Source: a virus
DNA length: 31,161 nt
Direction: 5' to 3' (one strand)
Virus record (IMG/VR): IMGVR_UViG_3300017971_000622
Part shown: positions 10,142 to 10,405 of the stretch, one piece after another
How positions within the stretch are numbered: position 1 is the stretch's first letter
Layout of the letters: the number at the start of each line of letters is the position of its first letter
The notes under the pieces: model-generated
Seen by the model: only the letters and a program-made list of their open reading frames with translations
Databases searched by the model: none
What the model was told of the DNA's origin: nothing
Translations under genes and position numbers: made by a program

Positions 10142-10405
10142 AGTGTACCTCCTCCTGTTTTGAAGCGTGGCCAACTGTAGGCCACCAATCTACCTGTTAG
10201 TCATCAGCACCAGTATCAACATGTCCGCACCGACAAGTCTTGCCGGGGGTGCGCCCGACTGGCTACCGTTCTCACGGTGCTTGCCACCCAGTACCAACAA
10301 CCAAAATCAATAATCGAAATCGGCACCTGTTTACCGCACCGGTTGATTTGTCAGCCGGATGCGCCGACCGACGCCCAACATTCGTAAACAGGTGCCCAAA
10401 AATCT
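10142..10405 (-). ncRNA. structured intergenic RNA directly upstream of the TROVE gene (candidate Ro-binding/Y-like RNA, or terminator plus leader)
   Basis: Perfect 13-bp inverted repeat: 10322..10334 (ggcacctgtttac) pairs with 10384..10396 (gtaaacaggtgcc). It is extended by CGCACCGG/CCGG-a-TGCG with one bulge. Three further hairpins follow, one with a GAGA loop. No ORF. Confidence 0.45.

What the first reader, a model, noticed from the sequence alone, without database searches (positions are those of the whole stretch)
10142..10405. Structured intergenic RNA abutting the TROVE gene: Y-RNA-like candidate
The 264-nt gap directly 5' of the TROVE start has no ORF and folds, by inspection, into four strong hairpins.

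The first is a perfect 13-bp stem (10322..10334 with 10384..10396). It is extended by an 8-bp stem with a single bulged nucleotide. A long stem with a bulge is the general architecture that Ro60 recognises in Y RNAs.

A second hairpin is ACTGG-GGC-ACCGT-GAGA-ACGGT-GCC-CAGT-like, with internal loops.

Bacterial rsr genes typically have their Y RNAs within a few hundred nt on the same strand.

Alternative reading: the first hairpin is followed by a U-rich tract (GAUUUCGAUUAUUGAUUUU). It may simply terminate or attenuate the upstream gene.
Basis: partly seen in the sequence, partly recalled or inferred. Interest (0 to 1): 0.65.

Follow-up and report, generated by a model that had tools for sequence, protein, structure and literature searches.

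The report
Phage Ro60 leader with Y-RNA mimic
The gap in front of this phage's Ro60-like (TROVE) gene is a real structured RNA leader, but it is not itself a Y RNA gene: the phage's true Y RNAs lie further upstream, and the most widely conserved piece of the gap is a small hairpin beside the ribosome-binding site that copies their presumed Ro-binding helix, which suggests the protein controls its own translation.

Summary
The gap (10142-10405, read on the minus strand, 5' of TROVE/Ro60 gene 8366-10141) is structured and holds three modules.

- **A (10322-10396):** It is real and very stable, but no homologue was found in about 200 related loci. It is not a supported Ro site.
- **B (about 10197-10304):** a four-way-junction RNA. 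It is conserved in four related phage contigs at varying positions. It is a candidate small RNA of unknown role.
- **C (10160-10189):** a bulged hairpin 4 nt from the Shine-Dalgarno. It is conserved with covariation in about 23 of 32 related loci.

The clade's real Y RNAs are YrlA derivatives that mostly lack the tRNA-like domain:
- D2 at 11385-11638;
- D1 at 16793-17012.

Their architecture is P1-(N)CUUCAG-P2-UUACUUC...CGAUUAUUG-P1'. C reproduces their basal bulged helix (AUUGGYG / CRC-N-CUUCA). A model built only from permuted D helices retrieves C in 11 loci.

Best reading: C is a Y-RNA-mimic operator for TROVE autoregulation. This is inferred, not shown.

Verdict: observation partly confirmed, interpretation partly supported, a new variant of a known kind.

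The parts
10322..10396 (-). Element A: a 75-nt hairpin that starts 9 nt after the ORF144 stop codon. It has a perfect 13-bp basal stem, an internal loop containing UACGAAUG, and a 9-bp (alternatively 4+8-bp) apical stem.
   Evidence: z = -4.5. No nhmmer hit at E <= 10 in 204 loci or the rest of the window. Absent from L195/L196 and L094, which share the ORF144-TROVE layout. Only a weak terminator-like flag on a sub-hairpin.
10308..10316 (-). Orphan CGAUUAUUG, an exact copy of the 3' internal-loop strand of the clade's Y RNAs. It sits between A and B.
   Evidence: The only copy in the 31-kb window. In about 310 kb of close loci there are 10 copies on the TROVE strand and 0 on the other strand. 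It is the consensus 3' strand of the D family.
10197..10304 (-). Element B: a four-way-junction RNA. A G.U-rich closing stem of 14-17 bp encloses three hairpins. The conserved core is 10200-10301, and the 5' flank is U-rich.
   Evidence: nhmmer E = 4e-15 and 8e-14 to L087 and L002. Model R2 finds only the window, L002, L087 and L202. In the 4-sequence alignment 96% of cells pair against 26-53% in slid controls, with 6 pairs changed on both sides. The plus strand does not fold (z = -0.07).
10160..10189 (-). Element C: the bulged hairpin AUU-G-GUGGCC-UACAGUU-GGCCAC-(G)-C-UUCAA, a mimic of the Y-RNA basal helix. It ends 4 nt before the Shine-Dalgarno.
   Evidence: Covariation across 21 loci: 93% paired against 29-55% slid, 28 double-sided changes, 0 of 500 shuffles. 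Model R1 hits once per locus, always just 5' of the TROVE RBS, with one weak E = 0.13 exception at a D RNA start. It also hits 3 loci that were not in its training set. The same extended motif occurs in D RNAs. Model R3, built from D only, retrieves it.
10148..10155 (-). Shine-Dalgarno GGAGGAGG of the TROVE gene. The start codon is at 10139-10141.
8366..10141 (-). TROVE/Ro60-like protein gene (591 aa).
   Evidence: Pfam TROVE 1.2e-19 plus a weak vWA_Ro60 hit. PHROG 850, RNA-binding protein. The family profile hits phage phiLo Ro60 9KOP/9L5Y at 9e-25, human RO60, Xenopus 1YVP and Rsr 2NVO.
11385..11638 (-). D2: a YrlA-derived Y RNA. Layout: P1 GAUAC/GUAUC, bulged A, CUUCAG, P2, UUACUUC, an insert of about 200 nt, then CGACCAUUG. 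It lies directly 5' of tRNA-Met and follows a TATAAT...GTTCTTTGA promoter-like site.
   Evidence: (z = -3.7).
16793..17012 (-). D1: the second YrlA-derived Y RNA. Layout: P1 GGCAC/GUGCC, bulged G, CUUCAG, P2, AUACUUC ... UGGUUAUCG. It follows a TTGCCC...TATAAT promoter-like site.
11287..11363 (-). tRNA-Met (CAU), part of the conserved tmRNA ... Y RNA - tRNA-Met ... TROVE array.

Best explanation
The gap is the 5' leader of a large phage's Ro60/TROVE mRNA. It is a mosaic of three RNA modules, not one Y RNA gene.

(1) Element C. This bulged hairpin ends 4 nt upstream of the Shine-Dalgarno. It is a closed-loop copy of the basal helix of the clade's own Y RNAs: AUU-G-GYG...CRC-(bulged N)-C-UUCA. 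Those Y RNAs are D1 and D2, YrlA derivatives that keep the stem and internal-loop module and the UUACUUC element but have mostly lost or replaced the tRNA-like domain. The most likely mechanism has three steps:
- The TROVE ring binds this helix on the Y RNAs.
- It binds the same helix on its own mRNA.
- Because C abuts the SD, binding blocks 30S entry, so free TROVE represses its own translation and abundant Y RNA titrates it away.

(2) Element B. This is an independently mobile four-way-junction small-RNA module of the same RNA-gene array. It is probably excised at its U-rich flanks. Its role is unknown, and it is possibly a further Ro-associated RNA.

(3) Element A plus the orphan CGAUUAUUG. 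This is a lineage-specific addition after ORF144. It is most simply a remnant of the 3' end of a decayed Y RNA and/or a transcript-stabilising or weakly attenuating hairpin.

Shown: the structures, their conservation and covariation, the D-YrlA link and the D-C motif identity. Inferred: protein binding, autoregulation and processing.
For: C hairpin:
- It covaries: 93% paired against 29-55% in slid controls, and 0 of 500 shuffles reach the observed score.
- It is found once per locus, immediately 5' of the TROVE RBS. This holds in 661 kb searched, apart from one weak E = 0.13 hit at a D RNA start, and in three loci outside the training set.

The D family is a real structured RNA family:
- P1 covaries across 30+ instances next to fixed CUUCAG and CGAUUAUUG.
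- D2 folds with z = -3.7.

D is YrlA-derived:
- Canonical phage YrlAs in distant TROVE loci have P1 - CAUUGYA - P2 - UUACUUCG - tRNA-like domain - P2' - GAUUUUAU - P1'.
- L016 carries a full V/T/AS/D tRNA-like domain that hits Rfam YrlA (E = 1e-4). It sits inside a CUUCAG/CGCUUUUUG module.

C matches D:
- The position-by-position consensus is the same, including the inner GYG/CRC pairs and the bulge.
- A model trained only on circularly permuted D helices puts C elements of 11 loci, the window included, among its 20 hits.
- Lineage changes are parallel. The L006/L007/L008 lineage lacks the bulged nucleotide in both D and C. Lineages with UUUUUG in D have UUUUG in C.

Other support:
- C usually lies 0-6 nt from the SD.
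- No promoter-like site lies inside the gap.
- B occurs at four different positions in the array: before C/TROVE, between two D RNAs, and before another ORF.
- The protein is Ro60-like.
- Phage Ro60 proteins bind Y-like RNAs encoded upstream of their genes (PMC12135203; PMC4201824).
Against: - No binding or expression data exist.
- That the D basal helix is the Ro-binding site is argued from position and conservation only. It lacks the published GNCGAAN0-1G/CGAA motif.
- C is missing or altered in about 9 of 32 clade loci. Some of these still have D RNAs (L003), and two close relatives lack the flanks (L087, L198).
- Individual R3 scores for C are weak (window 14.4 bits, E about 3).
- The parallel D/C changes are phylogenetically few events.
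- No comparable mimic was seen upstream of TROVE in loci with canonical YrlA (a crude scan).
- The A-rich/AAUU flank of C could also be read as a -10-like promoter element.
- B rests on four sequences, and the alignment was fitted to the model. The L202 copy does not fold this way on its own (z = 0.18).
Confidence: 0.5

Rival explanations
1. The gap encodes one or more bona fide Ro-bound Y RNAs. On this reading B, and perhaps A, are processed out of the leader and bound by the TROVE protein as YrlB-like partners.
For: - B is conserved, structured and strand-specific. It moves as a unit within the Y RNA/tRNA array and occurs in tandem in L087.
- Its closing stem is rich in conserved G.U pairs, and its flanks are U-rich.
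- In M. smegmatis, YrlA and YrlB are processed from one precursor upstream of rsr (PMC4201824).
- A has a long stem followed by an internal loop with UACGAAUG, 7 of 8 matches to GNCGAANG. That is the loose criterion used for phiLo Yrl1/2 (PMC12135203).
Against: - Neither A nor B has the clade's own conserved Y module (CUUCAG/CGAUUAUUG around a bulged helix, then UUACUUC). Neither has a T or D arm or any Rfam YrlA/Y_RNA score.
- A has no homologue anywhere.
- B is present in only 4 of about 35 clade loci, so it cannot be the general partner.
- A CGAA-like 8-mer with a mismatch is expected by chance.
Confidence: 0.25
2. Hairpin A is simply the intrinsic terminator or attenuator of ORF144, and the rest of the gap is an ordinary leader.
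For: - A starts 9 nt after the stop codon and is very stable.
- It is followed by a U-rich stretch.
- A sub-hairpin is flagged as terminator-like.
- L195 also has a different structured stretch after the homologous ORF.
Against: - The tail GAUUUCGAUUAUUG has no uninterrupted U run next to the stem. The phage's clear terminator (11219-11254) has GC-rich arms followed by a U-rich UUUUCUUUUU tail.
- The scan finds 6 such sites against 1.7 expected, at a permissive threshold.
- No promoter-like site follows A, so efficient termination would silence TROVE.
- This reading does not explain the conservation of B and C.
Confidence: 0.2
3. The helix shared by C and the D RNAs is recognised by something other than the TROVE protein, or is a generic stabilising 5' hairpin. 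Candidates are a host or phage processing endonuclease, a modification enzyme, or the ribosome. On this reading C does not mediate Ro autoregulation.
For: - The array (tmRNA, D RNAs, tRNA-Met, B) appears to be made from long precursors that need processing.
- In several loci C lies about 30 nt downstream of the tRNA-Met terminator, with no room for a promoter.
- The canonical Ro motif (GNCGAA) is absent.
Against: - The conserved nucleotides lie on the inner side of the helix, not at the ends where cleavage would release the RNA.
- In 661 kb, C is found only in front of TROVE, not in front of other genes.
- In YrlA the equivalent stem/loop module is the Ro60-binding part (PMC4201824).
Confidence: 0.25

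Closest known systems
YrlA (Rfam RF02553; Chen et al. 2014, PMC4201824): bacterial and phage Y RNAs that partner Ro60/Rsr
   Same: - Encoded on the same strand near a TROVE/Ro60 gene, among tRNA genes.
- The 5' and 3' ends pair (P1), followed by an internal loop, P2 and then a YUAY-type UUACUUC element.
- The 3' loop strand is GAUU(U)AUU-like.
- L016 links the two forms.
   Different: - The window's D1 and D2 have CUUCAG instead of CAUUGYA or GNCGAA.
- They lack the T/AS/D tRNA-like domain, so they get no RF02553 score.
- The elements inside the gap (A, B, C) are not YrlA at all. C is only the basal helix, closed by a loop and embedded in the mRNA leader.
Thermus phage phiLo Ro60 with Yrl1/Yrl2 (PMC12135203; PDB 9KOP, 9L5Y)
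   Same: - A phage-encoded Ro60 homologue (the best PDB match, 9e-25).
- Small structured RNAs encoded just upstream on the same strand.
   Different: - Yrl1 and Yrl2 were defined by a CGAA motif in an internal loop. Here that motif is absent from the conserved elements.
- No leader mimic was described for phiLo.
Translational operators that mimic the regulator's primary RNA ligand (E. coli ThrRS/thrS leader, ribosomal-protein leaders, phage MS2 coat/T4 RegA operators; from general knowledge)
   Same: - A small hairpin next to the SD reproduces the protein's binding site on its main RNA partner.
- The main partner can titrate the protein away.
   Different: - Never described for a Ro60/TROVE protein.
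- Binding here is inferred only.
Metazoan Y RNAs (Rfam RF00019) with the bulged GGUCCGA/UUGACU Ro-binding helix
   Same: A conserved helix with a single bulged nucleotide on one strand, near the paired termini.
   Different: Different sequence, no Rfam score, and no polymerase III context.

Membership tests
YrlA (RF02553 / Chen 2014) | Encoded within about 4 kb of the Ro60/TROVE gene and on the same strand | tested here: met
   A, B and C lie 19-255 nt upstream on the minus strand. D2 lies 1.25 kb upstream. D1 lies 6.7 kb upstream, outside the 4-kb rule.
YrlA (RF02553 / Chen 2014) | tRNA-like domain: near-invariant T and D stem-loops with an acceptor-like stem between them | tested here: not met
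   A T-arm-then-D-arm pattern scan finds 47 instances in related loci and none in the window. No tRNA-like signal in the gap at E <= 10.
YrlA (RF02553 / Chen 2014) | Score against the Rfam covariance model (gathering score 69 bits) | tested here: not met
   No hit at E <= 10 in 10050-10500 or at E <= 5 in 10100-17300. Positive controls: L059 34.5 bits at E = 3e-6, and L016 29 bits at E = 1e-4. Both controls are themselves below the gathering score.
YrlA (RF02553 / Chen 2014) | 5' Ro-binding motif GNCGAAN0-1G | tested here: not met
   Absent from B and C. A has UACGAAUG, 7 of 8 with the first G missing, and this is not conserved anywhere. D RNAs carry (N)CUUCAG at the equivalent position.
YrlA (RF02553 / Chen 2014) | Physical association with Ro60/Rsr | not testable with these tools
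   Needs immunoprecipitation or a gel shift.
Clade-specific YrlA-derived Y RNAs (D family, defined here) | P1 formed by the 5' and 3' ends, (bulged N) C-UUCAG / CGAUUAUU-G internal loop, P2, then (U/A)UACUUC | tested here: not met
   D1 and D2 meet all of these. None of the gap elements does:
- C has the helix, the bulge, C-UUCA and AUU-G, but no P2/UUACUUC, and its helix is closed by a loop. It is a mimic, not a member.
- A and B have none of the features. There is only the orphan CGAUUAUUG at 10308-10316.
Metazoan-type Y RNA (RF00019) | Bulged GGUCCGA/UUGACU helix and a covariance-model score | tested here: not met
   No Rfam hit at E <= 10.
Intrinsic terminator (element A) | GC-rich hairpin immediately followed by a run of U | tested here: inconclusive
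   Only a 5-bp sub-hairpin with tail ATTTCGATTA is flagged. There is no contiguous U run.
Hammerhead ribozyme (element B, because of CUGAUGA) | CUGAUGA ... GAAA core around three stems, and Rfam hammerhead models | tested here: not met
   No Rfam hit at E <= 10. CUGAUGA is part of the closing stem and reads CUGAUGU in L002. There is no conserved GAAA.

The most novel reading that the evidence does not exclude
A Ro60/TROVE protein controls its own synthesis through a Y-RNA mimic.
- The bulged hairpin C in its mRNA leader is bound like the basal helix of the phage's tRNA-domain-less YrlA derivatives.
- The pool of Y RNA therefore sets TROVE translation.
- Where B is fused 5' of C, as in the window and L202, the leader acts as a cis-linked 'Y RNA': an effector module plus a Ro site on the message.

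This would be the first feedback circuit described for the Ro60 family, and the first Ro-binding determinant that lacks the GNCGAA/GGUCCGA motif.
Probability: 0.35. Interest if true: 0.72.

Novelty: new variant of a known kind. Interest (0 to 1): 0.58.

Why it matters
Ro60 and Y RNAs are conserved from bacteria and phages to humans, where Ro60 is a major autoantigen. How Ro60 levels are matched to Y RNA levels is not known.

This locus offers three things:
- A compact, testable candidate for such a match: a 30-nt operator that copies the Y RNA helix beside the ribosome-binding site.
- Evidence that a whole clade of large environmental phages carries YrlA derivatives that dropped the tRNA-like domain yet kept a differently spelled stem/loop module. 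This widens the definition of the Ro-binding site, and explains why model-based searches driven by the tRNA-like domain miss them.
- A further conserved four-way-junction RNA (B) of unknown function.

If none of this holds up, the finding reduces to an ordinary structured leader next to known kinds of phage Y RNAs.

Tried and rejected
- **Rfam.** Searched at gathering score on the whole window, and at E <= 10 or 5 on the gap and on 10100-17300. Only tRNA-Met and tmRNA were found. I first suspected that Rfam lacked a YrlA model. That was wrong: RF02553 exists and hits canonical phage YrlAs below its threshold.
- **Phage GenBank records.** Megablast of the region matched only the tRNA.
- **Exact-pattern scans for the B core.** IMG/VR and GTDB genomes returned the already known L002 contig plus coding-sequence chance matches.
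- **Searches for A.** nhmmer in all loci found nothing.
- **Hammerhead reading of B** (CUGAUGA). Rejected: no Rfam hit, not conserved in L002, and it lies inside the closing stem.
- **Metazoan-like UGACUA/UGGU reading of B's stem.** Rejected, because the pairing register differs.
- **A full D RNA around A.** I looked for P1 and CUUCAG upstream. None is present.
- **A Y-mimic hairpin upstream of TROVE in loci with canonical YrlA.** A crude motif scan showed nothing systematic.
- **RBS sequestration.** I checked whether the SD pairs with sequence 5' of C, as a P2 analogue. There is no complementarity.
- **MVP-like gene as a general neighbour of TROVE.** Seen only in the window and L195/L196.
- **The Sim et al. 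2020 review** could not be read.

Full report
**Setting.**
- The TROVE gene is on the minus strand (8366..10141, 591 aa). It hits Pfam TROVE at 1.2e-19 with a weak Ro60 vWA match and PHROG 850 'RNA-binding protein'.
- A profile of 35 relatives hits the solved Ro60 of Thermus phage phiLo (9KOP/9L5Y, 9e-25), human RO60, Xenopus Ro (1YVP) and D. radiodurans Rsr (2NVO).
- The gap 10142-10405 is therefore the 5' flank of this gene on the minus strand.
- The ORF upstream (10406..10840) is a real gene, 49% identical to an ORF in the same place in a related contig.
- The window looks like part of a large phage. Relatives of the TROVE protein sit on IMG/VR viral contigs and on metagenomic contigs of up to about 340 kb. 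The window also encodes a tmRNA, tRNA-Met, NAMPT and a NUDIX protein.

**Checking the observation.**
The 83-nt hairpin is far more stable than shuffles (z = -4.5).
- The whole gap folds at -102 kcal/mol on the minus strand (z = -2.84).
- The U-rich tail after the hairpin is present.
Its inner part (GGC...ACCGU GAGA ACGGU...GCC) is supported, but its outer ACUGG pairs with a distant 3' strand.
- I divide the gap into three modules: A (10322-10396), B (about 10197-10304) and C (10160-10189).

**Comparative material.**
- A protein search found 388 relatives at E <= 1e-20.
- I fetched about 200 loci from IMG/VR, JGI metagenomes and by exact protein look-up.
- On the TROVE strand there is a recurrent array: tmRNA ... 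small structured RNAs ... tRNA-Met(CAU) ... TROVE.

**The real Y RNAs of this clade (D family).**
- A motif (N)CUUCAG-N7-(U/A)UACUUC recurs one to four times per locus, almost always on the TROVE strand.
- Each copy is closed by a helix, P1, formed with sequence just after a downstream CGAUUAUUG. P1 differs in sequence from copy to copy while staying complementary, across 30+ instances of 60-315 nt.
- The window has two copies: D2 (11385-11638, directly 5' of tRNA-Met, z = -3.7) and D1 (16793-17012).
- Distant TROVE loci carry canonical YrlA RNAs with the layout P1 - CAUUGYA - P2 - UUACUUCG - V/T/AS/D tRNA-like domain - P2' - GAUUUUAU - P1'.
- The D family shares P1, P2, the UUACUUC element and the GAUUAUU-type 3' strand. 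It has CUUCAG on the 5' strand, and it has lost or replaced the tRNA-like domain.
- L016 (TROVE 43% identical) is the link. It has a complete tRNA-like domain that hits Rfam YrlA (29 bits, E = 1e-4) inside a CUUCAG / CGCUUUUUG module.
- Rfam YrlA scores canonical phage YrlAs only through the tRNA-like part (L059, 34.5 bits). This explains why D1 and D2 are invisible to it.
- The defining YrlA features are taken from Chen et al. 2014 (PMC4201824).

**Element C.**
- In 21 loci the sequence immediately 5' of the TROVE Shine-Dalgarno is AAUU-G-[5-7 bp helix]-loop-[helix]-(N)-C-UUCA(A/G).
- The helix covaries. 93% of cells pair against 29-55% when the partner is slid, there are 28 double-sided changes, and no shuffle reaches the observed score.
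- A covariance model of C hits once per locus, always at this spot. In 661 kb the only other hit is a weak E = 0.13 match at the start of a D RNA in L017. The model also finds C in three loci that were not used to build it.
- Position by position, C and the basal part of D share AUU-G-G-Y-G on one strand and C-R-C-(bulged N)-C-UUCA on the other.
- As an objective test I cut the D RNAs open and joined their 3' strand to their 5' strand through a random loop. I built a model from these 27 artificial hairpins only and searched all loci. Of its 20 hits, 11 are the C elements in front of TROVE, including the window (10158-10189). The rest are junctions of tandem D RNAs.
- The single scores are weak (E = 0.03-3). 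That they land in the same 40-nt spot in 11 loci is not chance.
- Lineage-specific changes run in parallel. L006, L007 and L008 lack the bulged nucleotide in both D and C. Lineages with UUUUUG in D have UUUUG in C. These are few independent events.
- C usually ends 0-6 nt from the SD (4 nt in the window). Three loci insert an extra hairpin there.
- C is missing or altered in about 9 of 32 clade loci.

**Element B.**
- B matches L087 and L002 strongly (nhmmer 4e-15 and 8e-14).
- A covariance model adds L202 (43 bits, E about 1e-9) and nothing else in about 750 kb.
- The consensus is a four-way junction. A 14-bp G.U-rich closing stem encloses three hairpins, with conserved single-stranded GGCAAG and UUGAUACUGG.
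- On four sequences, 96% of cells pair against 26-53% slid, with six pairs changed on both sides.
- Caveats: there are few sequences, the alignment was fitted to the model, and the L202 copy does not fold this way alone.
- The plus strand does not fold (z = -0.07).
- B changes position. It lies directly before C in the window and L202, between two D RNAs in L002, and in tandem before another ORF in L087.
- It therefore behaves as an independent RNA module, not as a leader of one particular gene. It has no Y-module motif, no tRNA-like arm and no Rfam relative.

**Element A.**
- A has no detectable homologue.
- The closest relative (L195/L196, TROVE 84% identical, same ORF-gap-TROVE layout) has C but neither A nor B. 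L094, which also has the ORF144 homologue, goes straight from the ORF to C.
- The tail of A contains the only CGAUUAUUG in the window, the exact consensus 3' strand of D RNAs. In close loci this 9-mer occurs 10 times on the TROVE strand and never on the other. I take A plus this motif as a probable remnant of a Y RNA 3' end.
- The terminator reading is weak. Only a sub-hairpin is flagged, at a permissive threshold (6 sites found against 1.7 expected), and there is no clean U run.
- No promoter-like site lies between A and TROVE.

**Mechanism.**
- Shown: three structured modules, their conservation patterns, the D-YrlA relationship, and the identity of the C motif with the D basal helix.
- Inferred: the TROVE protein binds that helix. 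In YrlA the stem/loop module formed by the RNA ends is the Ro-binding part (PMC4201824), and phage Ro60 binds upstream-encoded Y-like RNAs (PMC12135203). Binding to C next to the SD would repress translation, and Y RNAs would compete for the protein.
- A search of the held literature found no paper on Ro60 autoregulation of this kind.

**Comparison with what is known, and verdict.**
- Phage Ro60 genes with nearby Y-like RNAs are known, so the general idea is not new.
- New here are the tRNA-domain-less YrlA derivatives with a differently spelled module, the leader mimic C, and RNA B.
- None of the gap's elements passes the membership tests for YrlA or metazoan Y RNA.
I rate this a new variant of a known kind, of moderate to good interest.

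Noticed in passing
window 11717-13408 (-) and 13375-14496 (-): Two overlapping ORFs (563 and 373 aa) together match a single 918-aa protein in L195/L196. That protein carries Major Vault Protein shoulder and repeat domains (Pfam MVP_shoulder 3e-21, Vault_3 1e-7). An MVP-like gene therefore sits about 1.6 kb upstream of a TROVE gene, with small structured RNAs between them, which recalls vault components. 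The split may be a frameshift. The gene is not a general neighbour of TROVE in other loci.
   Followed up: partly
window 10860-11166 (-): A structured non-coding stretch of about 310 nt ('E') lies between the tRNA-Met terminator and ORF144. It has a 13-bp closing stem (GACAAUCGGAUGU/ACAUCCGAUUGUC), a 3' strand CUGAUAUUG that resembles the Y-RNA loop strand, and a CGAA-like AACGAAAG near its 5' end. Homologous stretches occur in L195 (4965-5320) and L199 (870-1270). No Rfam match.
   Followed up: partly
window 15201-15578 (-): A phage-encoded tmRNA with the unusual tag AKVINFPGVMAPAMAA. The order tmRNA ... tRNA-Met(CAU) ... TROVE is conserved in many related contigs.
   Followed up: partly
window 11654-11681 and 11158-11190 (-); L195, L199, L200, L202-L204: A recurrent promoter-like signature, TATAAT/TATAGT followed 6-8 nt later by GTTCTTTGA, precedes the D and E RNAs. 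It probably marks the transcription starts of the RNA genes.
   Followed up: partly
L001 3729-3816: A tRNA-like gene that ARAGORN misses. It has a 7-bp acceptor stem, a CAU anticodon loop, a perfect T arm and a 3' ACCA, but its D loop is enlarged by an extra hairpin (GGCGAAAGCC). It scores 22 bits against the Rfam tRNA model, below threshold.
   Followed up: no
L087 153-678; L198 1-130: In the two relatives whose C hairpin lacks the AUUGG/CUUCA flanks, an extra ORF of about 175 aa sits between B and TROVE. By eye it resembles a sulfotransferase, but no family search was run.
   Followed up: no
L195 1365-1616, L199 98-379, L200 1582-1824, L202 2569-2814, L203 2570-2812: A small PP-binding (acyl-carrier-like) gene of about 80 aa is repeatedly found just upstream of the RNA array and TROVE.
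   Followed up: no
protein P0066: One TROVE homologue is 871 aa long and carries intein/LAGLIDADG domains (PF14890, PF14528). It appears to be an intein-containing Ro60-like protein.
   Followed up: no
window 26538-28007 (-), 27937-28920 (-), 25422-26435 (-): NAMPT-type nicotinamide phosphoribosyltransferase, a NUDIX protein and a PAPS-reductase-like protein. This is an NAD-salvage set typical of large phages.
   Followed up: no
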